Origin: Candidatus Thorarchaeota archaeon
Lineage (GTDB): Archaea > Asgardarchaeota > Thorarchaeia > Thorarchaeales > Thorarchaeaceae
Assembly (NCBI GenBank): GCA_029858305.1
Contig: JAOUFI010000019.1
Location: 1-36,057, forward strand
Length of the DNA: 36,057 bases
Reading direction: 5' to 3'
Within the stretch, counting starts at the first letter, position 1, and each line of letters begins with the position of its first letter. The translations under genes were made by a program, and so were the position numbers. Positions 26,640 to 36,057 of this stretch are shown in pieces. The notes under the pieces are model-generated. The model was not told the DNA's origin. It worked only from the letters and a program-made list of their open reading frames with translations, and made no database searches.

Positions 26640-28937
26640 TCACATACGAAGGTAAAAACGGCTATTCATCACAGCACCTATTGGAGCTATAACCCTGCGG
26701 TCAATAAGGGATACATTATCCATCATTTTCAGGGCTCGATTGATATTCGAAAAAACAGCATTCAGATATGGTTGTGCCTCGACCATCTCTGATTCTTCAA
26801 CCATCTGAAGATATGCATTGGCGATTTTGATCAATCCTAACCAGTCCTCAGATAGAATAAAGCTATATTGGTTTTCGTCAATAGCGGGTGGAGTTCCTGG
26901 GATTGTTGCTCTATCAATATATGCTGCATAGTGGTTTTCTAGGGTCAATGCAAATCTGCGAAGTACTTGCGACAATGAGGCGGAGGTTGCTTTGATGAAT
27001 TCAACCGATTCATCGAATTCAGGTTCAATGCGTAAAACTTCACCAAAGGCTACAGCAGCGCTGTATAATCCCGTCGCCATTTCAGAATAGTCTTTATTGG
27101 CAAAAAATGCTCTGATGGTCTGAATCAGATATGTTTCACCCAACCAGTATTGTGCGAGGAGAGGATCAACACGTTGAACTTCATCATCAACAGAAGGCTG
27201 AACCCGTCGTCCTAGCTCAATGTTCAAAGATTCAAGATTTAGCTTCGTTATGGATAAAGCCGCTGTAAGTTTTGCAACATCTGCTAGCGCATTATCAGAG
27301 TTGGCCATTCTCTTTGAACGTTCAAGAAGGGTTGGCCAAGATTTCTCAAGGAAAGGAACAAGTAGTGAAACGCTTTCAATGAACAGAGATTCTTGAGGTG
27401 CATCAATCAACATCCTATCAATATCTTCGAAGAGACGTTGTAGCCGTTGGGATATGTTACGACCATGTCGTGTGATTAGCCAAACAACATCATATGTTGC
27501 AATGGCAATTTCCTCGTAGGCTCGACGGTCTGTTGGAAAAAGAGGGATATATTGAACGAGTATATTTCGGATTGGCTCCAGAAAATCATCTGAATCAGAT
27601 CGATCTGAAATCCTCATCATGGAGAGTGCGAGACCAATTCGTGTTCCTAGAAGTTCAATATCGGAAACACTGCCCTTCTTCAAGAAATCTTCACGAATCT
27701 CTTCTGCCCATTTGAATGCCTTGATTCCCAAATCCCAGAATTCAGTAGATTCTGTAGATAAACTCAACCAACCAATCGTGTTTTCTACCTTTGCCTTTTC
27801 TAGTTCTACGTCAGGCATCTCATCATCTATCTCATCCAAAATACTTCTGGCTTGGGTTAATAGCTCAATCGCCTTGTTCATACTGTCATAGTCATTCATA
27901 AAACCATGAGCAAATCCGAGCCCACACAAGGTTTTGTACACATGAAATAATTGGATAGATGTCTTATTCTCTATACCCTCGTATATTTCAAGTCCAGACT
28001 CAAGACGCTCGATTGCCTCTGAAACACCCTCTCTCCAGCCATTAGCTAGGATACTTGATCCAATCACAAGATGTGCCAATCCAACTTCATCACGACTAAC
28101 CAGATCGGACTTCAAAGCAATATCATAAAGCTCTGCGGCTTTGTCCCCAATCTTTCGTGCAACTTTATACGATATTGAATCGTCGCGAGTTTCGTTCACT
28201 GCAAGTTGGAGAGTAACTTCAGCTAGTCTGAGAGCATCTTTGCTTGAACGTGCCTCTTTCTCTAGATTGTTGAGAATGTCGCGGGATTGGTCATACATTC
28301 CAAGTTCTGTCAATACACAGGCGTAATCAAAGGTTGCTTCGAAATGTAGTTCCTTCTGTCCGGCTTCTCTGGATATTTCTATCACTCGGTTGAGTAAGAG
28401 TTCAGCACCCTCAAAGAATCCAGCTTCAATCAAAATCCAAGCAAGATAATGAACCTCATGAAGCGCAAGTGTTGTTGTACCATCATGCCTTCGGTCGTAA
28501 ATTGCACCTAACGTTAGTGAAGCTTCATCGGTCAAGAAAGGTAGAACTGGCCGCAGATTGAGTCTAATTGTAGAGGTTATTGCTTGTGACAGTTCACCTA
28601 GAATGTCCACAAGTGTTGGGAGAGCCTCAATGTCGGGCAGGAGCTCGCATTCGGATCGTCTATTACTATTCGTGTATCTAGTATCAAGTAGTATTAGTGA
28701 TTCAGGTAGAGTTCGATTTTTCTTGAAGGATAGACGAACTGCTATCTCAGTCAGTTTTGCACTCGCTAGGCCAGGCCTTCTGAGAATAATTTCCTCAATC
28801 GCCCTTGCAATATCGAATAGAAGATTAGATTCCTCGCTGTCCCTAGCTGAAATGTTTTGAATCATTGAGAGACCATCATCGAGAGAGAGGGATGCACAGA
28901 GTATATCACGTAGTGCAGTCAATAGCAAGGATTCCAC
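26640..28937 (-). CDS. Large alpha-solenoid / TPR-like protein
   Basis: 765 aa, helical composition, repeated LG/LA...A...L..A patterns (e.g. LGMYDQSRDIL, KAIELLTQA). Confidence 0.65.
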   Translation of the reverse strand: MESLLLTALRDILCASLSLDDGLSMIQNISARDSEESNLLFDIARAIEEIILRRPGLASAKLTEIAVRLSFKKNRTLPESLILLDTRYTNSNRRSECELLPDIEALPTLVDILGELSQAITSTIRLNLRPVLPFLTDEASLTLGAIYDRRHDGTTTLALHEVHYLAWILIEAGFFEGAELLLNRVIEISREAGQKELHFEATFDYACVLTELGMYDQSRDILNNLEKEARSSKDALRLAEVTLQLAVNETRDDSISYKVARKIGDKAAELYDIALKSDLVSRDEVGLAHLVIGSSILANGWREGVSEAIERLESGLEIYEGIENKTSIQLFHVYKTLCGLGFAHGFMNDYDSMNKAIELLTQARSILDEIDDEMPDVELEKAKVENTIGWLSLSTESTEFWDLGIKAFKWAEEIREDFLKKGSVSDIELLGTRIGLALSMMRISDRSDSDDFLEPIRNILVQYIPLFPTDRRAYEEIAIATYDVVWLITRHGRNISQRLQRLFEDIDRMLIDAPQESLFIESVSLLVPFLEKSWPTLLERSKRMANSDNALADVAKLTAALSITKLNLESLNIELGRRVQPSVDDEVQRVDPLLAQYWLGETYLIQTIRAFFANKDYSEMATGLYSAAVAFGEVLRIEPEFDESVEFIKATSASLSQVLRRFALTLENHYAAYIDRATIPGTPPAIDENQYSFILSEDWLGLIKIANAYLQMVEESEMVEAQPYLNAVFSNINRALKMMDNVSLIDRRVIAPIGAVMNSRFYLRM

Positions 28938-28995
28938 TCTTCAAGCCTCTCTGTAAAGATGCGGTTTGATACTCCTTTAAAGCTTTCACAGCAAA

Positions 28996-29700
28996 CTATC
29001 GCTCAATAGTGAAGTCATGCCACTCCCGAGATGTTTCCGTCCCACGCATACGTTCCATACGTACTTGATGTTTAGGAATAGGTTCGATATCATTGATTCT
29101 AAAACGAAGTACTGCATCAGCAAGATAAGAAAATGTGGCATAGGTTTTTTCATCATGTACACCTTCTTCAAGCACATACATGATACTATGAGAGCTCTGT
29201 GTGATTCTTCCACTAAGTCGTTGAATTGCCTTTGGCATTGTTGCAGGATTTGAATGGAGAATCAAGGTGGAAAGACTATCAATGACGACACGAGCAACAA
29301 CTACATTTTCTAGAACCTCTGAGAGGACTATTCCTAGCTCGCTGATGTCATCAACTTTGGCAAGAGACCTTGCAGATCCTGTTTTTGGTGCGCCCATTCT
29401 CTCCGAGTAGCCATCTATGAATACAAACTGACCTGCTGCTTCTTGTGCCTCAGTTGCCCAGCCATGACGACTCATATCATTGCGAATGACTCTGGGAGAT
29501 ACATCGGTCGTGACAAATATAGCAGGAAATCCCTGATCAATACCCTCCGCAAGAAAAGCCTCTGCGTACGTAGTCTTACCTGCTCCTAGAGGGCCAACAA
29601 GCATGTAAGATACCTGAGTCAACTGTCCAAACTTAACAAGATCACTAATCATTGGATGTGCACGTGCAGGTTTTTGTGTTGAACTCTCTGAGCTATTCAA
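28996..29700 (-). CDS. KaiC/RAD55-like RecA-fold ATPase, CII-like, degenerate catalytic site
   Basis: Walker A GPLGAGKT, Walker B VVIDSLS, SYLAD and ERMRGT; TTD replaces the catalytic EE. Confidence 0.85.
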   Translation of the reverse strand: MNSSESSTQKPARAHPMISDLVKFGQLTQVSYMLVGPLGAGKTTYAEAFLAEGIDQGFPAIFVTTDVSPRVIRNDMSRHGWATEAQEAAGQFVFIDGYSERMGAPKTGSARSLAKVDDISELGIVLSEVLENVVVARVVIDSLSTLILHSNPATMPKAIQRLSGRITQSSHSIMYVLEEGVHDEKTYATFSYLADAVLRFRINDIEPIPKHQVRMERMRGTETSREWHDFTIER

Positions 29701-29719
29701 TTTGCCACATCCCAGTCAG

Positions 29720-30466
29720 CTAGCTTCCTGGACTTATTTCGCCAGGCCAGACTCTTATACCTTCGTCTGTAATTCGCATTGAGTGTATCCTCGAGCTGTG
29801 CTTTGATCCTCTGAGCTTTAAGACCTCAATTGAACGAGAACGTGATGTGTCTGAAATCTTTTCGTTATAGAGAACAATGACTCCTGAGGCTAGAAAAGCT
29901 TCGATATCGAACACACCTAAGCCTGTTTCTTGTGCTGGAATCTCACTTGTAATCAAAAGGGTGCAGCCTGTTCGTGTGATGTTTGCTGCAAGTCTAAAGA
30001 ACTCCTCCCGGAGGATATCTCGACTTCTAAACTTATAGGCCATGATTGAGAGGGTATCAAGCACGACACGAGTAGCATTGATTTTCTTGATATGATTCAT
30101 AATTATTGCCTGTAGACCAGATAGATCGAAACTGGGGTATTCCCCTATCGTGGCAGGTGTCGCCTCCTTTGAAGGAGAAAGATCAACGATGGAAATCTTG
30201 CCCTCCTTTTCGAGCTTTTCAAGATCCATCCCAAACCTTAGCATGTTTCTCTTTATCAGGATGGGAGATTCTTCTAGAGTCACAAACACTCCTGGTTCAT
30301 TATACTCTGTGACCCCCTTGTAGATGAACTGAGTTGCAAGGATGCTTTTGCCAGTACCAGCTTTCCCTGCGATGAGAATTGTATCGCCCTTTGGAAAACC
30401 GCCCTCAATCAACTCATCAAGGCCTGGAATACCAGTCTTTACTCGTTCTATTGTATAATCACTCAT
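29720..30466 (-). CDS. KaiC-like ATPase, CI-like
   Basis: TGIPGLD..IEGG.P, GKAGTGKS, EPGVFVTLEE, RVVLD and IEVLKLRGS. Confidence 0.9.
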   Translation of the reverse strand: MSDYTIERVKTGIPGLDELIEGGFPKGDTILIAGKAGTGKSILATQFIYKGVTEYNEPGVFVTLEESPILIKRNMLRFGMDLEKLEKEGKISIVDLSPSKEATPATIGEYPSFDLSGLQAIIMNHIKKINATRVVLDTLSIMAYKFRSRDILREEFFRLAANITRTGCTLLITSEIPAQETGLGVFDIEAFLASGVIVLYNEKISDTSRSRSIEVLKLRGSKHSSRIHSMRITDEGIRVWPGEISPGS

Positions 30467-30795
30467 CAGGATTCACCCTTCTTCTTGGTCATGACCTTGG
30501 CCCCGAGTACCATCTTCATCAACATCTCTGGCTCCGGGATTCCAGTGATAGAGACTCCGCCAATCATAACTGTGGGTAGGGCAAATATACCATACTCCTC
30601 AGCAGCCTCTGGATTCTCACTTACATTGATTATTACAAGCTTGAATGTATCAAGCCCAAAGTCATTAATCGTTTCTCGAATCACTTCTTCAGCCCTTGGA
30701 CAAAACGCGCATGAATCAGATTTGAAGAACACAACCTCAATCATATTGGAATCATCCGCCTCTGACTCGGTTGGTTCAGTCTTCAAATCGCGCAC
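30466..30795 (-). CDS. Thioredoxin-fold protein with KaiB-like segment, coupled to the KaiC gene
   Basis: CAFC and INVSENPEAAEEYGIFALPT; TGATG stop/start overlap at 30468-30464; exact start uncertain. Confidence 0.8.
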   Translation of the reverse strand: MRDLKTEPTESEADDSNMIEVVFFKSDSCAFCPRAEEVIRETINDFGLDTFKLVIINVSENPEAAEEYGIFALPTVMIGGVSITGIPEPEMLMKMVLGAKVMTKKKGES

Positions 30796-30886
30796 TCCTA
30801 GGATGAAGAAACGGTACCATCAAGTAACGTGGAAATCACTTGAATGTTTTGAGAGCGTGTAATACGCATTTGAAAAAGCCATTTCT

Positions 30887-31270
30887 TCACTTATAGCCCA
30901 TAAGGATACGAATTCTTGTAGTAGCTTTTCCGATTGCTCGGGCATGGTAACGGATATTCTTCGGCACCAGAGCTCCGATAATCAATGTCTCATCGCCTCG
31001 TGCTCCTACACGTTTGAATACGGCTTTTCCATCTTGGCAGCGAAGACTGATATCCCTAATTTCACCTAGCATCAGTTCTTTCCGCACACGCTCAGCAACA
31101 TCAGCAATCATTCCACACATAGCTGCAACGATATCTTGATTGGTCTTAGGAGATGTGGCGGATGAGACTAGCAGACCATTTCCTCTTGCAAGAACAGAAG
31201 CTGAATAATTGCCTTCTTTATTCATGGTCTCTAGAATCTTTGGAAGTTCGCGATAATCTGGCCGTTCCAT
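30887..31270 (-). CDS. Roadblock/LC7 (MglB-like) protein
   Basis: SVLARGNGLLVSS...IVAAM...AERVRKELMLGEI pattern; 127 aa. Confidence 0.85.
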   Translation of the reverse strand: MERPDYRELPKILETMNKEGNYSASVLARGNGLLVSSATSPKTNQDIVAAMCGMIADVAERVRKELMLGEIRDISLRCQDGKAVFKRVGARGDETLIIGALVPKNIRYHARAIGKATTRIRILMGYK

Positions 31271-31405
31271 ATGGACACACCATCTATCCTTGGAGTACTT
31301 GTCGCATTGTGTGTTTGCCTATTAAATAGTTTGAGACTATCTATATTTCCACAGTAGAGATTTAAATGTCCATGAACCCTCTTCTTGAATGTGGAGTTGA
31401 GCTGT

Positions 31406-31954
31406 ATGTCTACAGATTACCGTTTCAAAATTGTCATGTTAGGAGACGGTGCAGTAGGCAAGACAGCCATGACTGCTAGGTTCACCCAAGACTATTTTGA
31501 AGCAGACTACAAGAGAACCATTGGCACTGATTTCTCTGTCAAGCGAATGAACATTCCTGAAATTGAGGCTCACGTCACGCTGCAAATATGGGATCTCGCA
31601 GGTCAACCCAGGTTTGAGTTTGTGCGACAAGGATTCTATAGAGGCTCTAGAGGAGGTCTCCTATTATACGACGTGACCAGACGAAGAACCTTCATCAACG
31701 CGGAAGCTTGGAAGGATGAGGCCTTCAAGAATCTGAAGGGTGAGATACCTCTTGTTTTGGTAGCTAACAAGGTGGATCTCACTGACAGTAGAGCTGTAAC
31801 AACCGAAGAAGGCGAGGAATTCGCCAAAAAGAATGGATTCCTGTACGTCGAGTCGAGTGCTCTCACAGGTGAAAATGTAGAACAAGCCTACATTGAGTTA
31901 TGTAAAATCATGATTGAAGAGGGAAAAACGAAATCTAGTGGACCAATAATATAG
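31406..31954 (+). CDS. Rab-like small GTPase
   Basis: GDGAVGKT, TIGTDF, QIWDLAGQ, FYRG, NKVD and ESSA; no C-terminal Cys; start ATG 31406. Confidence 0.93.
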   Translation: MSTDYRFKIVMLGDGAVGKTAMTARFTQDYFEADYKRTIGTDFSVKRMNIPEIEAHVTLQIWDLAGQPRFEFVRQGFYRGSRGGLLLYDVTRRRTFINAEAWKDEAFKNLKGEIPLVLVANKVDLTDSRAVTTEEGEEFAKKNGFLYVESSALTGENVEQAYIELCKIMIEEGKTKSSGPII

Positions 31955-31961
31955 CCACAGT

Positions 31962-33092
31962 TCATTGGCGCGTGTTTCCTTTTAACAGTCCCAGAGCTCG
32001 CTTGCATTGCCAGACAACATAGAACATACGTTTTGTCTGTAGTGTTTCCTCATCATATTGTGCATAGAGTGCTTCGTATTTCTGAATGAACTCATCTCTG
32101 CGATTCGGATCGTTTGTTGATTCTATCTCCTTCAATAATAACTGAAATGGCTCAAGCATTTCATTCATATCCTCTACTTCCCACCGAATGATGGCTCCAG
32201 TGCCATCAGCAGTAAGGAAAGCATTACGAGATGGATACCATTCTATCCCATCAATCTCGCCCATTGTGGATGCTTCACCCTGAACTGTCTGGGTAGCAAC
32301 ATCCCAAAGATAGATTGTCCTATCACCAGACCCTGATGCGAGATAGCGCCCATCACTACTGAACCCCAATGAACGAACTTCGCTCTCATGACGTTGAAGT
32401 GTTTGTTCTAATTTCATTGGTTTGAATGTTGCATTCCATAATAGCATTGTCAAATCCGACGAACCAGACACAAGGCGGGATCCATCAGGATTGAAGCGCA
32501 CCTCTCTGACCGCAGCCCTATGGTCATCATGACGAGCAATCATCGCCCCAGTTTCTGCATTCCATTCGCAGATGTTTGCATCTACAGAGCCAGATACGAT
32601 ACGACTACCTTGCGGATCCCAATCAACTGTGACAACATAGAATCCATGACCCTTCATCTGACGAATCAATGAGCGATTTTCAACATCCCAGATAATGAGA
32701 GTTGTATCCCCACTTCCTGATACAAGCTTATTCCCATCAGGGGAGAACGAGAGAGACAATACAGGGTATGTATGTCCTTCTAGTATCCCAATACATTCGC
32801 CTGAACGTATATCCCAGAGCTTCACTAATCTCTCAACTGTTCCAGAGGCAACAATATCGCCTCTCGGACTGAACGCAAGAGAGGTGCTGAGAAAATCATC
32901 CTGCATCCGTTGCATCTCTGTGCAGTCATCAGCTGCATAAAGTCGAATACTTCGGTCTTGAAGAGCTGCTGCAAACATACGACCTACACGATTCATTGCA
33001 AAACGACGTGTTATCTCAGAGCCATGTTCTGCCTGTGGCTTGAGGATTGTAGGCTTCAAAAAGATGCTTAGCTCGTCATGCTCCATTGACAT
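31962..33092 (-). CDS. WD40 beta-propeller protein with short helical C-terminus
   Basis: About 7 repeats with GH...FSPDG..LVSGS.D..WD consensus; start taken at ATG 33092. Confidence 0.92.
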   Translation of the reverse strand: MSMEHDELSIFLKPTILKPQAEHGSEITRRFAMNRVGRMFAAALQDRSIRLYAADDCTEMQRMQDDFLSTSLAFSPRGDIVASGTVERLVKLWDIRSGECIGILEGHTYPVLSLSFSPDGNKLVSGSGDTTLIIWDVENRSLIRQMKGHGFYVVTVDWDPQGSRIVSGSVDANICEWNAETGAMIARHDDHRAAVREVRFNPDGSRLVSGSSDLTMLLWNATFKPMKLEQTLQRHESEVRSLGFSSDGRYLASGSGDRTIYLWDVATQTVQGEASTMGEIDGIEWYPSRNAFLTADGTGAIIRWEVEDMNEMLEPFQLLLKEIESTNDPNRRDEFIQKYEALYAQYDEETLQTKRMFYVVWQCKRALGLLKGNTRQ

Positions 33093-33308
33093 CACGCGCG
33101 GCGTAATCAAAGGCCCGTAAATATGTTGTGAAAGAGAATCTGAGGAATATTCAAGATAGTAGATTATCATGTCTACCTGTTTCAAAATTATATTTCAATA
33201 ATGATTTGCTAGGAAAATTGAATGAGCACATTTCAATTCTCAAAAAAAGGGAACTCCATCATACTTATTTTATTGAAAGGATTGCAATTGCGCAGAGGAA
33301 ACAATGTA

Positions 33309-34196
33309 ATGTGGATACTGACACTACTCCTAATTGGTGGGTCTTTATGCATTTGGATATTTACAGCAATAACGTTCCAAAAACAGCTACGCTTTGCTAC
33401 TCTGCTGTTTGATCTGCTTCCATTTTATCCACTAATAGAAGTAGTAGCAGCAATATCTTTCACTATTGGGTTGCATTTATGGTTACCATTAGAGTATGTG
33501 ATATTTTTCGGTTGCATAGGATGGGTAATAGCACTCCTGTTGATGCATCAGTTCATAAAATGGGGAAGAGGGTATCGTTTAGATCAATATCGGATGTTTT
33601 TACATACAATTAAAGATGATAGATTTGAGATTGTACTCTTCAATGACCATCTACATGGTGAGTTTAGTAAGAATAAGGTAAATGTCTTGTTACGACACGA
33701 TGTAGATATTTCACTCTCGCGGGCTAGAAAAATGTATGAGATTGAAAAGGAGCAAGGAATCAAATCTACCTACTTCTTTCGCATGCATGCAGAGAAGTAT
33801 AGCTATAATGAAGCAAAATCATTGATTGCACAACTTGTCAATGATGGCTATGGAATTGGTTTGCATTACGATGAACTTTCATTCACTAGGGGAAACAAAG
33901 AGAAAGCAATTGCGTTGTTTAAAGAGGATCTATCAGAACTTCGTAAAATCGGAACAACGCATATTGTTTGTGCCCATGGACATAGTAAATACAAGAATCG
34001 TGCGATGTGGGAAGAATTAGATCGTGAATCCCTGCAGGTTTGGTCAGCCTATGACATAATACATGATTTGTACATCAGCGAAGCGGGTGGAAAAAGAATA
34101 GTAGATTCAGAAGGTAAACATATCCTTCAAAAAATAGAAGAAACTACAATAGGGCAAGTTATACAGGTGCTAATTCACCCCGATTGGTGGTTTTAG
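33309..34196 (+). CDS. Membrane-anchored polysaccharide deacetylase-like protein
   Basis: About 3 N-terminal TM segments; LLRHDVD, STYFF, IGLHY and LIHP.WW; start uncertain (33222 or 33309). Confidence 0.75.
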   Translation: MWILTLLLIGGSLCIWIFTAITFQKQLRFATLLFDLLPFYPLIEVVAAISFTIGLHLWLPLEYVIFFGCIGWVIALLLMHQFIKWGRGYRLDQYRMFLHTIKDDRFEIVLFNDHLHGEFSKNKVNVLLRHDVDISLSRARKMYEIEKEQGIKSTYFFRMHAEKYSYNEAKSLIAQLVNDGYGIGLHYDELSFTRGNKEKAIALFKEDLSELRKIGTTHIVCAHGHSKYKNRAMWEELDRESLQVWSAYDIIHDLYISEAGGKRIVDSEGKHILQKIEETTIGQVIQVLIHPDWWF

Positions 34197-34342: not shown

Positions 34343-35563
34343 TTGTCTAGAAAACCAGATAGAGTCGTGTCAAGAGCATTAGGGGGCGGAGAATCAGTCA
34401 ATCGTCTAAAGAAGGCAATGAAGAATATCTTCAAGTCATCTGAGGATAAGATCCAGAAAATGCTGGATGAAATTACAAGTATTCAAGCCTGTAGAGACGC
34501 TGCGTTGACAGGAGATGATGATTTACGACTACTTGCAATTTGTAGATTAGGTGAATTTGGAGCGGAGGCCTACGAATCTCTTGATATTGCATTAAACGAT
34601 GAAAATCCCATCATTCGAACCGTAGCAGCAGGTATGTTGGCATACACAAAGAGAAGTGATGCTTTGCCAATTCTCAAAGAGCATACGAATGACAACAACA
34701 CCACTGTGAAGGAAACAGTGGAATTTGCGTCAGAGTGGTTACTACGATATGGAAAAGAAGCTCCAAGAGGGAAAACAATACCTAAATCCCTTGAGAACCC
34801 AACCGAGATTCTCATTGATACCGAACCAATTCCTCTCCGAACAACCGATGATGTCTTGGTAGTTAATGAGTATACAATAACATCCGATACGCTCGAATAT
34901 GGTATAACCATCAAGAATGAGGGCAGTACTCCAATCAATGATGTTTCTGTGAGAATTCTTACATACCCACAGGAAGCGATCATACTTGTAGACCCTATGA
35001 CTCAAATGATAGAAACTATAGATTCAGGAGACTCGGGTTCACTCATTTTTGGATTTTCAATTTATGGAGAGTGCATCGAGGGTGAGATTATAACATCTGT
35101 AAACCTCGTGGACTCAAAAGGGGAAGTTCTCTCAGCAAAGGCAGGGAATGTATTCGTACGTTCGCTATTCAATCAATTCAATCCTCTTGAAACGGCTGCT
35201 GACGATTTTATTCGCCTGAAAACTGACATGAAACAATGGAACAGGGAGCATACTATTCTTGCTGAAGCAACTGAACTTCATGAATCTGTACTGCTTATTC
35301 TCGAAGGCAAAAACCTTCATGTGTTCCAAAGGGATGCTATAGAAAGAGAGGGTGTTTTCATGGGAGTGCAGACAGGACTCGCAGAGGGCAAGTTCAGTAA
35401 AACTAGAATTGCCGTGACCATGACAGTTGTCGGCAGTATGAATGATAGTCTATCAAAGATGAGAATTGATATTTTTGCAGATGATCCCGAGATACTTCAG
35501 ACAGCTGCCAGTGACCTCTTTGAAACAATACAGAGAGACCTTGGAGTGCTAGAAGAAAAATAA
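34343..35563 (+). CDS. HEAT-repeat protein with C-terminal beta-sandwich + platform (COP/adaptin appendage-like)
   Basis: HEAT units (ALNDENPIIRTVAA, NDNNTTVKETV), linker, then YGITIKNEGSTPINDVSV sandwich and an alpha/beta tail. Confidence 0.65.
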   Translation: MSRKPDRVVSRALGGGESVNRLKKAMKNIFKSSEDKIQKMLDEITSIQACRDAALTGDDDLRLLAICRLGEFGAEAYESLDIALNDENPIIRTVAAGMLAYTKRSDALPILKEHTNDNNTTVKETVEFASEWLLRYGKEAPRGKTIPKSLENPTEILIDTEPIPLRTTDDVLVVNEYTITSDTLEYGITIKNEGSTPINDVSVRILTYPQEAIILVDPMTQMIETIDSGDSGSLIFGFSIYGECIEGEIITSVNLVDSKGEVLSAKAGNVFVRSLFNQFNPLETAADDFIRLKTDMKQWNREHTILAEATELHESVLLILEGKNLHVFQRDAIEREGVFMGVQTGLAEGKFSKTRIAVTMTVVGSMNDSLSKMRIDIFADDPEILQTAASDLFETIQRDLGVLEEK

Positions 35564-35574
35564 GAGCCTTCTTT

Positions 35575-36057
35575 CTATGTGAGTCCGCCTGCTTCAAGGA
35601 TTTTGATTGCTAACTCTAGGAAAGCAGCCTCAACATTTATTCCTGTCTTTGCACTTGTTTCAAGAAATGATGTAATGACACCTTGATTCGCAATCTTTTC
35701 TGCGAGTTTCTGTCCTTCCTCAGTGGTCACAATGGTCTGAGCCATCACAGGATTGTCTTTGAATTGATCCCTTAGGTCTATCTTATTGGCGATTAGAACA
35801 ATAGGTATCTTCTTACCAGCATTTGTCCAGCATTCATCCACCCAGTTCATGAGATTGTCAAAAGACCCACGTTCAACTGTAGAATAAACTGCTAGCGCAC
35901 CCTGTGCGCCTCTATAGAAAGTGGAACGTACACTCTTGAAGTGTTCCTGGCCTGCGAGATCCCAAATCTGAATGCTAACATCATGACCACCCTCAAGTTG
36001 CATCTTCTTGACAGCAAAATCAGCACCGATAGTGATCATGTAGTTGGCTCGGAAACC
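35575..36057 (-). CDS. Rab-like small GTPase, 5' end beyond the window
   Basis: Frame open to the window end (GFRANYMITIGADF); QIWDLAGQE, FYRGA, NKID and ETSAK. Confidence 0.92.
   Translation of the reverse strand, partial: GFRANYMITIGADFAVKKMQLEGGHDVSIQIWDLAGQEHFKSVRSTFYRGAQGALAVYSTVERGSFDNLMNWVDECWTNAGKKIPIVLIANKIDLRDQFKDNPVMAQTIVTTEEGQKLAEKIANQGVITSFLETSAKTGINVEAAFLELAIKILEAGGLT

What the first reader, a model, noticed from the sequence alone, without database searches (positions are those of the whole stretch)
34343..35563. Miniature coat-adaptor-like protein: HEAT trunk + hinge + beta-COP/adaptin-type appendage
Seen: short HEAT array, a Pro-containing linker, a beta-sandwich-like segment, then FNPLETAADDFIRL...ILEGKNLHV...FMG...MRIDIFADDPEILQTAASDL. 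Inference from recalled patterns: the tail resembles the beta-COP appendage platform, and the layout mimics trunk-hinge-ear large subunits of AP/COPI complexes in 406 aa. It is convergent with a Rab-like gene.
Basis: inference. Interest (0 to 1): 0.7.

Follow-up and report, generated by a model that had tools for sequence, protein, structure and literature searches.

The report
Thorarchaeal HEAT-hinge-ear adaptor-like protein
An Asgard (Thorarchaeota) archaeon encodes a small soluble protein in which a few ordinary HEAT repeats are tied by a floppy hinge to a domain predicted to fold like the two-lobed "ear" of eukaryotic vesicle-coat adaptors; it looks like a lineage-specific reshuffle of an ear module already reported in archaea, and its job is untested.

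Summary

The "trunk" is a generic 92-residue HEAT stack with no Adaptin_N match. The ear is a promiscuous Asgard module: cytoplasmic tails of surface proteins, and fusions to Zn-ribbons, LRR, TPR, WD40 and BBS-type propellers. HEAT-ear ears form one clade, so one fusion. The gene was found in 49 of 86 family genomes. It lies between a WD40 gene and a Rab-like gene that are adjacent in all four HEAT-ear-less genomes examined.

Archaeal ears are in print; I found no HEAT-hinge-ear chain in print. This scan has already noted the same family on at least seven other genomes.

The parts
34343..35563 (+). Whole gene: 406-aa HEAT-hinge-ear protein (TTG start, stop 35561-35563)
   Evidence: ORF list and translation. 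Orthologues align from residue 1 (M1, K4 and R7 nearly invariant).
34343..34477 (+). N-terminal helical lead, residues 1-45, with invariant G14-G15 and the start of the invariant TSIQAC(K/R)DAALTG block (45-57)
   Evidence: Model helices 6-12, 16-29 and 36-43, pLDDT 61-67. Conservation.
34478..34753 (+). About four PBS-lyase-type HEAT repeats, residues 46-137
34754..34837 (+). Disordered hinge, residues 138-165
   Evidence: pLDDT below 50 for residues 142-160. The first half has variable sequence.
34793..34843 (+). Conserved hinge motif E151-T167, ENPTEILIDTEPIPLRT (family consensus ENPxEILL[DE][TS][DE]xIPL[RK]T)
   Evidence: Alignment of 36 orthologues. The core (A/E)EIL survives in the 39-44% identical orthologues. 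A role as a short linear binding motif is inferred.
34838..35167 (+). Ear subdomain 1: Ig-like beta-sandwich, residues 166-275
35168..35542 (+). Ear subdomain 2: alpha/beta platform (TBP-like or helix-grip), residues 276-400, order a-b-a-b-b-b-b-a; orthologue-invariant W299-N300-R301-E302-H303
35575..36057 (-). Context only: convergent Rab-like GTPase ('Ras_down'), cut by the window end; no link to the HEAT-ear gene is shown
   Evidence: Pfam Ras E 7.4e-38. An orthologue at 84-97% identity lies downstream in 21 of 25 assessable loci. It is a paralogue of the crystallised Thor-Rab (E 3.7e-37).
31962..33185 (-). Context only: WD40 propeller protein with a C-terminal helical tail (likely start near 33092)
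   Evidence: Pfam WD40 E 5.8e-49. It lies upstream and divergent in 22 of 28 assessable loci. It is present in 69 of 86 family genomes, 28 of them without the HEAT-ear gene.
31385..31954 (+). Context only: orthologue of the crystallised Thor-Rab ('Ras_up')
   Evidence: 7ezb_A E 6e-91. The SMTZ1-45 copy in locus L015 is identical to 7ezb over 177 residues. Present in 25 of 26 assessable loci.

Best explanation
The gene encodes a soluble cytoplasmic scaffold made of two binding modules joined by a flexible tether. The rear half (166-400) is an adaptin/COPI-type ear: an Ig sandwich packed against a TBP-like platform. By analogy with eukaryotic ears, and given its reuse as the constant module of many Asgard proteins, it probably serves as a protein-protein docking hub. 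The front half is a conserved helical lead plus about four generic HEAT repeats and offers a second binding surface. The hinge carries a conserved acidic-hydrophobic motif (ENPxEILL[DE]) that probably works as a short linear binding motif. The protein arose once, within Thorarchaeota, when a common archaeal HEAT stack was fused to the lineage's own ear module. It is an analogue of the trunk-hinge-ear layout of AP/COPI large subunits, not a shrunken adaptin. Its most likely partners are products of the genes it sits among: two Rab-like GTPases (one is the orthologue of the crystallised Thor-Rab), a WD40 propeller and a Roadblock protein. Shown here: the gene, its conservation, the predicted fold, the modular spread of the ear, the single origin and the synteny. 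Inferred: every binding event and any role in sorting.

For: Sequence-only hints: 3 of 74 family members hit Pfam Coatomer_b_Cpla (best E 2.7e-4). Language-model features of residues 166-406 place it next to eukaryotic adaptin/COPI ear clusters (0.83-0.89; below 0.9, so a lead only).

Hub role: of 149 representative hits, 131 carry the ear. They sit behind TM helices of beta-helix, LVIVD, SBBP, SBP_bac_5 and Big-domain surface proteins, or behind LRR, TPR, WD40, BBS2/7-type propellers and Zn-ribbon arrays. 78 are followed by a C4 Zn ribbon.

Single fusion: the 15 HEAT-ear ears plus 2 ear-only fragments form one clade with support 1.0 among 135 ear segments.

Hinge motif and invariant N-terminal block.

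Synteny across 39-73% identical orthologues: Ras_down in 21 of 25, WD40 in 22 of 28 and Thor-Rab orthologue in 25 of 26 assessable loci.

Print: archaeal IG+TBP 'adaptin appendage regions', including Zn-ribbon and TM-linked forms, are described as interaction hubs (10.1101/2024.02.06.579148; passages and section 6).
Against: The protein itself hits no appendage Pfam family at E<=1. A family profile finds no adaptin in the PDB by sequence (best E 0.049, to an unrelated chain). The fold call therefore rests on predicted structure.

The neighbours do not depend on this gene. The WD40 orthologue is in 69 of 86 family genomes and in all 16 genera, against 49 of 86 genomes and 7 of 16 genera for the HEAT-ear gene. 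By my hand count the split is: both 41, HEAT-ear only 8, WD40 only 28, neither 9. In 4 of 4 HEAT-ear-less genomes examined, Ras_down and WD40 are adjacent and co-directional, so the HEAT-ear gene sits as an opposite-strand insert between them. In 6 of 29 loci WD40 is missing. In 4 of these with downstream DNA Ras_down is missing too (the other 2 end at the gene), and its orthologue was found elsewhere in the 3 of these genomes that I searched. In this window a 324-aa membrane-protein gene separates WD40 from the HEAT-ear gene.

A shared fold does not show a shared function. I could not map the ligand-binding residues of eukaryotic ears.
Confidence: 0.55

Rival explanations
1. It is a true, reduced homologue or surviving precursor of the AP/COPI large subunits. 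On this view the HEAT part is a remnant adaptin trunk that binds a membrane-bound small GTPase, and the ear recruits accessory or cage proteins. Together with the WD40 propeller, the two Rab-like GTPases and Roadblock it would form a primitive GTPase-driven coat.
Against: There is no Adaptin_N hit at E<=1, and the HEAT part is 92 residues whose best matches are designed alphaRep/PBS-type repeats. No sigma/mu-type subunit gene lies nearby. The gene was found in only 7 of 16 genera of one family. The neighbours persist and remain adjacent without it. The ear is fused just as readily to LRR, TPR, WD40 and Zn-ribbon arrays. HEAT-ear ears are one long-stemmed clade inside an archaeal ear family.
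Confidence: 0.1
2. It is an ESCRT-linked cargo adaptor, a functional analogue of ESCRT-0, as proposed in print for Asgard proteins that carry the adaptin appendage region. The ear would dock to ESCRT-I/II components and the HEAT part would select cargo.
For: The paper 10.1101/2024.02.06.579148 (passages and section 6) links archaeal ears to ESCRT loci (the 'Meth_adaptin' systems) and to Vps28-C, longin and TPR fusions in Asgard archaea. The C-terminal Zn ribbons of ear paralogues weakly hit zf-Sec23_Sec24 (5 of 22, best E 3.2e-4) and Vps36-NZF-N (2 of 22).
Against: This protein has no Zn ribbon, and Pfam reports no Vps28-type domain in it; I did not search for a steadiness box. No ESCRT or ubiquitin gene appeared among the ORFs I scanned in the window from 23.3 kb onward. 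None of 13 ORFs scanned in the 20 kb around the ear paralogue on contig C119 had an ESCRT hit.
Confidence: 0.15
3. The ear resemblance is a fold-level coincidence of two common building blocks, an Ig sandwich and a helix-grip domain. On this view the protein has a role unrelated to trafficking, for example as a regulator or assembly factor of the adjacent Roadblock / KaiB-like / KaiC-like signalling operon, or of other HEAT clients.
Against: The two subdomains match ears as one rigid unit: 207-224 residues aligned, well above single-domain hits. The same two-domain unit is conserved as a block in 131 representative clusters. Sequence-only leads point to the same families. Print reports HHpred probability 98 for a euryarchaeal ear against beta-COP 5NZR_B (supplementary table of PMC10936438).
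Confidence: 0.2

Closest known systems
Beta-COP and gamma-COP appendage domains of COPI (PDB 9qpq_H, 5nzr_B, 1pzd, 1r4x; Pfam Coatamer_beta_C, Coatomer_b_Cpla, COP-gamma_platf)
   Different: Sequence identity is 8-12%. The protein itself has no significant Pfam match. The trunk is 92 residues against several hundred in beta-COP (the beta-COP length is recalled). No partner subunits are known. That 9qpq chain H is beta-COP is inferred from its residue numbering; 5NZR_B is named coatomer subunit beta in a supplementary table of PMC10936438.
AP2 alpha- and beta2-adaptin appendages (PDB 1b9k, 1w80, 1qtp, 1e42, 3h1z, 2iv9)
   Different: Whether the peptide-binding sites of the adaptin ears are kept could not be tested. 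The hinge is about 28 residues. Its conserved motif (EILL[DE]) recalls the acidic-hydrophobic motifs of adaptin hinges, but by the recalled clathrin-box consensus it does not fit.
Archaeal 'adaptin appendage regions' (IG + TBP) described with ESCRT systems (mBio 2024, PMC10936438 / 10.1101/2024.02.06.579148), and the Asgard Alpha_adaptinC2 candidates in Table S3 of PMC10307638
   Same: The same IG + TBP unit. Paralogues here show the printed features: a Zn ribbon after the ear, TM-linked forms and TPR fusions. Many of the 33 Table S3 rows are ear + Zn-ribbon proteins of about 330 aa.
   Different: All 33 Alpha_adaptinC2 rows are Lokiarchaeales, Helarchaeales or Sifarchaeia; none is Thorarchaeia. 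[quoted passage not shown] 'HEAT' has 0 hits in the 7 of 10 mBio supplementary files that could be searched. This protein has no Zn ribbon and no ESCRT context.
BBSome subunits BBS9/BBS2/BBS7 (PDB 6vbu, 6voa): propeller + GAE + platform
PBS-lyase-type HEAT proteins (Pfam HEAT_2; designed alphaRep proteins, PDB 3ltj and others)
   Different: Those proteins have no hinge and no ear.

Membership tests
Adaptin/COPI appendage ('ear') fold | N-terminal Ig-like beta-sandwich subdomain | tested here: met
   Strands 166-274, pLDDT above 90. They align within the alpha, beta2, beta-COP and gamma-COP ears. This is a predicted structure, not a solved one.
Adaptin/COPI appendage ('ear') fold | C-terminal alpha/beta platform subdomain packed on the sandwich so that both align as one unit | tested here: met
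Adaptin/COPI appendage ('ear') fold | Sequence match to the Pfam appendage families (Alpha_adaptinC2, B2-adapt-app_C, Coatamer_beta_C, Coatomer_b_Cpla, COP-gamma_platf) | tested here: inconclusive
   The protein itself has no such hit at E<=1. Among family members, 3 of 74 hit Coatomer_b_Cpla below its threshold (best E 2.7e-4). A family profile against PDB sequences finds no ear. Language-model features: 0.83-0.89 to eukaryotic ear clusters.
Adaptin/COPI appendage ('ear') fold | Conserved peptide-binding sites on the platform and on the sandwich | not testable with these tools
   The fold tools return no residue-level superposition. The orthologue-invariant W299-N300-R301-E302-H303, F339-M340 and R374/D376 are candidate site residues only.
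AP/COPI large subunit (adaptin, beta/gamma-COP) | Long Adaptin_N-type HEAT/ARM trunk | tested here: not met
   No Adaptin_N (PF01602) hit at E<=1 and only HEAT_2 at 27.0 bits. The repeat region is 92 residues. The fold matches listed for it are alphaRep/PBS-type repeats.
AP/COPI large subunit (adaptin, beta/gamma-COP) | Disordered hinge between trunk and ear | tested here: met
   pLDDT below 50 for residues 142-160. The hinge is short (about 28 residues) and holds a conserved motif.
AP/COPI large subunit (adaptin, beta/gamma-COP) | Assembly with a second large, a medium (mu) and a small (sigma/zeta) subunit | not tested
   The neighbours I scanned are Ras-family GTPases, a WD40 protein, Roadblock, a Trx/KaiB-like protein and KaiC-like proteins. 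No genome-wide search for sigma/mu-type genes was made, and no binding could be predicted.
Archaeal adaptin-appendage-region proteins (IG + TBP; PMC10936438) | IG + TBP two-domain unit homologous to the other archaeal ears | tested here: met
   phmmer links residues ~170-397 to more than 100 representative clusters. 131 of 149 representatives carry the unit. Alignment.
Archaeal adaptin-appendage-region proteins (IG + TBP; PMC10936438) | Genomic or domain link to ESCRT components (Vps4, ESCRT-III, Vps28-C, steadiness box) | tested here: not met
   The protein has no such domain, and no such gene lies among the window neighbours I scanned. None lies in the 20 kb around the C119 paralogue.
Pfam HEAT_2 (PBS-lyase-type HEAT) | Score at or above the gathering cut-off | tested here: inconclusive
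   27.0 bits against a cut-off of 27.7. Six of 74 family members, at most nine of which have the HEAT-ear layout, hit HEAT_2, best E 5.1e-8. The fold match is clear.

The most novel reading that the evidence does not exclude
The adaptin-type ear is the common cytoplasmic handle of a large set of Thor-, Loki- and Hel-archaeal single-pass surface proteins. The soluble HEAT-hinge-ear protein, together with the WD40 propeller, the two Rab-like GTPases (one of them Thor-Rab) and Roadblock that flank it, would then be a GTPase-switched adaptor. That adaptor would gather or sort these ear-tailed receptors at the membrane. This would be a working, pre-eukaryotic counterpart of cargo-adaptor-coat logic, built from the same folds: small GTPase, HEAT, hinge motif, ear and beta-propeller.
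Probability: 0.08. Interest if true: 0.9.

Novelty: new variant of a known kind. Interest (0 to 1): 0.5.

Why it matters
The origin of vesicle coats is an open question in eukaryogenesis. Published Asgard surveys report the adaptor domains only as separate pieces (PMC10307638). This protein shows HEAT repeats, a hinge and an adaptin/COPI-type ear in one archaeal chain. The evidence points to a local reshuffle of a promiscuous ear module and not to an ancestral adaptin, which is a caution against reading domain order as ancestry.

It also offers concrete experiments. In Ca. Thorarchaeota SMTZ1-45 the gene lies two genes from the Rab that has already been purified and crystallised (7EZB). A direct GTP-dependent binding test is therefore feasible.

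The wider observation, that this ear forms the cytoplasmic tail of many Asgard surface proteins, gives a handle for asking what archaeal ears bind.

Tried and rejected
Complex prediction. I submitted WD40 + Thor-Rab orthologue + HEAT-ear, each as a 19-row alignment. The tool reported a full queue, and reported itself unavailable. Nothing was folded, so no statement on binding can be made.

Sequence route to eukaryotic ears. phmmer of the protein against PDB sequences finds only alphaRep/HEAT chains. A 22-sequence ear profile finds no ear (best E 0.049, to an unrelated designed protein). NCBIfam gives only sub-threshold NblB and DUF11-repeat hits.

ESCRT link. No ESCRT hit among 13 ORFs scanned in the 20 kb around the C119 ear paralogue.

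Expression. No RNA holder is listed among 21 sequencing runs. I did not lay reads.

The search for related loci with the 53-row alignment failed for lack of a conserved stretch. I repeated it with 36 closer orthologues.

Literature. Earlier scan notes mention a '2026 survey table' that lists this layout. Searches and passages of PMC13734099 and 10.1101/2025.11.06.686947 did not turn it up. The supplements of PMC13734099 are not held and may bear on this.

Clathrin-box reading of the hinge. The motif ENPxEILL[DE][TS][DE] does not fit the recalled consensus at the fourth position, so I do not claim it.

The weak 4wwm_A hit (E 0.025, residues 274-334) was not followed up.

Full report
OBSERVATION

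An ORF of 406 codons with a TTG start runs exactly from 34343 to 35563 on the + strand. The window is about 41-47% G+C. The best-named relatives are 'HEAT repeat domain-containing protein' of Candidatus Thorarchaeota. Orthologous loci come from 29 Thorarchaeota/Promethearchaeota assemblies. The organism is therefore an Asgard archaeon of the Thorarchaeota type. The downstream convergent gene 35575..36057 (-) is a Ras-family GTPase (Pfam Ras E 7.4e-38) and is cut by the window end.

ANATOMY

Pfam sees only HEAT_2 over residues 57-126 (E 5.7e-6; 27.0 bits against a cut-off of 27.7) and nothing in the rear 60% of the protein. Against PDB sequences the protein matches designed alphaRep HEAT proteins.

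AlphaFold2 on a 53-row alignment gave mean pLDDT 86.2. The model has these parts:
- helices 6-43 at moderate confidence;
- HEAT helices 47-136;
- a segment below pLDDT 50 at 142-160;
- a nine- to ten-stranded sandwich at 166-274;
- an alpha/beta domain at 280-399, in the order a-b-a-b-b-b-b-a.

A second model of residues 166-406 alone, built on a different and more diverse 22-row alignment, gave pLDDT 92.9 and pTM 0.78 with the same secondary structure.

WHAT THE REAR HALF IS

- Foldseek against the PDB: the top 16 listed matches were all COPI or AP2 ears or whole COPI chains. Examples are 5a1u_E at 4.6e-12 and 9qpq_H at 3.2e-11 with TM 0.65 on the target. The list also holds the alpha-adaptin ears 1w80, 2vj0, 1b9k and 1qtp, the beta2 ears 1e42 and 2iv9, and the gamma-COP ears 1pzd and 1r4x. 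BBSome chains follow.

That 9qpq chain H is beta-COP is my inference from its residue numbers. 5NZR_B is named 'Coatomer subunit beta (appendage region)' in a supplementary table of PMC10936438.

Sequence-only support is weak but points the same way. Three of 74 family members hit Pfam Coatomer_b_Cpla on their own (best E 2.7e-4; 1 of 22). Language-model features of residues 166-406 put it nearest to eukaryotic adaptin/COPI ear clusters (0.83-0.89, which the tool rates as a lead only). A family profile found no ear among PDB sequences.

WHAT THE FRONT HALF IS

The most conserved stretch of the whole protein lies at the junction of the lead and the first repeat: T45-S-I-Q-A-C-(K/R)-D-A-A-L-T-G57, nearly all invariant in 36 orthologues. 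G14-G15 are also invariant.

The hinge has a variable first half and a conserved second half, ENPxEILL[DE][TS][DE]xIPL[RK]T (E151-T167 here). The core (A/E)EIL survives in orthologues of 39-44% identity. I read this as a short linear motif, which is an inference.

THE EAR IS A SHUFFLED MODULE

phmmer against 1.84 billion representatives gave 323 hits at E<=0.001. After nine full-length HEAT-ear clusters, the hits match only residues ~170-397. That unit sits near the C-terminus of proteins of 260-2,770 residues.

The N-terminal parts of these proteins include right-handed beta-helix/NosD, LVIVD, SBBP propellers, TSP3, Big domains, FG-GAP, SBP_bac_5, LanC-like/glycosidase-like, LRR, TPR, WD40 and TIR domains.

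In sequences read in full, the ear follows a hydrophobic helix plus a basic stop-transfer stretch. Examples are P0143 (beta-helix ... TM ... RRRR ... ear), P0150 (solute-binding domain ... TM ... KRR ... ear ... Zn ribbon), P0172 and P0141. The ear is therefore cytoplasmic.

I took a census of the 149 listed representatives other than P0025, using a crude hydropathy-window predictor:
- 131 carry the ear;
- 83 have at least one TM-like segment upstream, 59 of them within 120 residues;
- 78 have a CxxC...CxxC ribbon within 70 residues after the ear;
- 7 have two ears;
- 8 have the HEAT-ear layout.

Two clusters (P0181, P0248) join a BBS2/BBS7-type propeller to the ear.

This genome has three ear genes:
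- the one under study;
- a 758-aa protein with about ten Zn-ribbon repeats, a linker, an ear and a Zn ribbon (contig C119);
- a 363-aa TM-ear-Zn-ribbon protein (contig C21).

In a sample of 301 genomes of the phylum, the ear profile matched in 150. By family the counts were f1 72/76, f9 62/68, f16 5/5, f24 6/7 and four further families with one genome each. There was no match in the other 22 families. At most six candidates were scored per genome, and absence here means 'not found at E<=1e-5'.

A FastTree of 135 ear segments put the 15 HEAT-ear ears plus two ear-only fragments (P0130, P0132) in one clade. Its support is 1.0 and its stem is about 1.0 substitutions per site. Segments covering fewer than 190 profile positions were dropped and the tree was midpoint rooted. 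This points to one fusion event.

DISTRIBUTION AND NEIGHBOURHOOD

The HEAT-ear orthologue was found, in nearly all cases once, in 49 of 86 genomes of the family. That is 13 of 23 high-quality genomes and 7 of 16 genera. It was not found in several genomes of 97-98% completeness.

In the 29 named loci the gene order is: a 765-aa protein, KaiC-like, KaiC, Trx/KaiB-like and Roadblock (all on the - strand); then Ras_up (+); WD40 (-); HEAT-ear (+); Ras_down (-). The counts are:
- Ras_down downstream in 21 loci, absent in 4, no DNA to judge in 4;
- WD40 upstream in 22, absent in 6, not assessable in 1;
- Ras_up present in 25, absent in 1, not assessable in 3.

Ras_up is the orthologue of the crystallised Thor-Rab (7ezb E 6e-91). 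The SMTZ1-45 copy in locus L015 is identical to 7ezb over 177 residues (paper PMC10933270, abstract and passages seen). That paper does not mention these neighbours. Ras_down is a paralogue (E 3.7e-37) and is unusually conserved: 84-97% identity where the HEAT-ear protein is 39-73%.

Evidence against a tight functional unit:
- The WD40 orthologue is in 69 of 86 genomes and in all 16 genera. My hand count is: both 41, HEAT-ear only 8, WD40 only 28, neither 9.
- In 4 of 4 HEAT-ear-less genomes fetched, Ras_down and WD40 are adjacent and co-directional. The HEAT-ear gene therefore lies as an opposite-strand insert inside that pair.
- In six loci of a deeper clade WD40 is missing and the HEAT-ear gene lies about 100 bp behind Ras_up on the same strand. 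In the four of these with downstream DNA, Ras_down is missing too.
- In the three of those genomes that I searched, the Ras_down orthologue (85-87% identity) sits elsewhere, without a WD40 gene.
- In this window a 324-aa membrane-protein gene with no Pfam family and no tblastn match in the 29 loci separates WD40 from the HEAT-ear gene.

MECHANISM

Best reading (confidence 0.55): a soluble two-module scaffold. The ear is a docking hub, the HEAT part and lead form a second binding surface, and the hinge motif is a third. It was made once in Thorarchaeota by fusing a common HEAT stack to the lineage's ear.

The candidate partners are the neighbouring Rab-like GTPases, WD40 and Roadblock, but they are not shown to bind. 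I submitted a three-chain complex job. The tool's queue was full and the tool was then declared unavailable, so no binding evidence exists in either direction.

The rivals are a true reduced adaptin/proto-coat subunit (0.1), an ESCRT-linked cargo adaptor as proposed in print for other Asgard ear proteins (0.15), and a fold-level coincidence with an unrelated role (0.2).

COMPARISON WITH PRINT

Archaeal 'adaptin appendage regions' (IG + TBP) are described in 10.1101/2024.02.06.579148 / PMC10936438. They include Zn-ribbon forms, TM-linked GOLD forms, and Asgard fusions to Vps28-C, longin and TPR (passages and section 6 seen; the authors' names are not quoted because the tool did not show them).

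[quoted passage not shown] Its Table S3 holds 33 Alpha_adaptinC2 rows, all from Lokiarchaeales, Helarchaeales or Sifarchaeia and none from Thorarchaeia (the file was cut when stored).

'HEAT' occurs 0 times in the 7 of 10 mBio supplementary files that could be searched.

Full-text searches and passages of PMC13734099 and 10.1101/2025.11.06.686947 gave no description of a HEAT-hinge-ear chain. The supplements of PMC13734099 are not held.

I therefore rate this a new variant (domain layout) of a known kind.

EARLIER NOTES OF THIS SCAN

The same family has been noted on at least seven other genomes, with the same reading. I re-tested three of their claims:
- the Thor-Rab lead holds;
- 'separately dispensable neighbours' holds;
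- 'most ears lack this stalk' holds.

I could not verify their '2026 survey table'.

VERDICT

The ear interpretation is supported. The 'trunk' and the coat role are not supported. Interest 0.5.

Noticed in passing
window 33222-34196 (+): A 324-aa ORF with several hydrophobic N-terminal segments and no Pfam family lies between the WD40 and HEAT-ear genes. It has no tblastn match in any of the 29 orthologous loci, where the two genes are mostly about 100-190 bp apart. It looks like an insertion specific to this lineage.
   Followed up: partly
proteins P0143, P0150, P0141, P0172; census: The adaptin-type ear forms the cytoplasmic tail of many Asgard single-pass surface proteins with very large extracellular parts (beta-helix, LVIVD, SBBP, Big, solute-binding). 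Of 131 ear-bearing representative clusters, 83 have a TM-like segment upstream and 78 have a C4 Zn ribbon after the ear.
   Followed up: partly
proteins P0181 and P0248: Two clusters of about 605 aa join a BBS2/BBS7/Itfg2-type beta-propeller to the ear (P0248 also has a Zn ribbon). BBS2_Mid scores 33.5 bits against a cut-off of 27 in P0248. This layout is reminiscent of the BBSome subunits BBS2/7/9.
   Followed up: no
L001 1486-3762 (-) = G000 contig C119; neighbouring ORF L001 1-1410 (-): The best-conserved ear protein of the family (758 aa here; about 760-780 aa in most relatives) has about ten tandem Zn-ribbon units, then a linker, an ear and a Zn ribbon. The gene beside it encodes a paralogous Zn-ribbon array with no ear. 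No ESCRT hit among 13 ORFs scanned within 20 kb.
   Followed up: partly
relatives, e.g. G215:C15:4149-11266, G087:C18:43036-47350, G251:C51:20760-27424: Tandem arrays of three to five ear genes with open frames of about 350-480 aa, the size class of the TM-ear-Zn-ribbon gene on contig C21. This suggests local gene-family expansion.
   Followed up: no
alignment A2 members: The C-terminal Zn ribbon that follows many ears weakly hits zf-Sec23_Sec24 (5 of 22, best E 3.2e-4) and Vps36-NZF-N (2 of 22). All hits are below the Pfam thresholds.
   Followed up: no
window 35575-36057 (-) and its orthologues in L004-L030, L033-L035, L039-L042: This Rab-like GTPase is 81-97% identical across genomes in which its neighbours are 39-85% identical. 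In 4 of 4 genomes without the HEAT-ear gene it lies directly upstream of, and co-directional with, the WD40 gene, which suggests a Rab-WD40 operon.
   Followed up: partly
window 26640-31270 (-): A conserved block of a 765-aa protein with no Pfam family, two KaiC-like ATPases, a thioredoxin/KaiB-like protein and a Roadblock protein. It accompanies the locus in the loci with enough upstream DNA. The scan has already noted it (e1-6876947).
   Followed up: no
protein P0183: A 783-aa protein combines a beta-propeller, a TIR domain (E 4.3e-15) and the ear.
   Followed up: no
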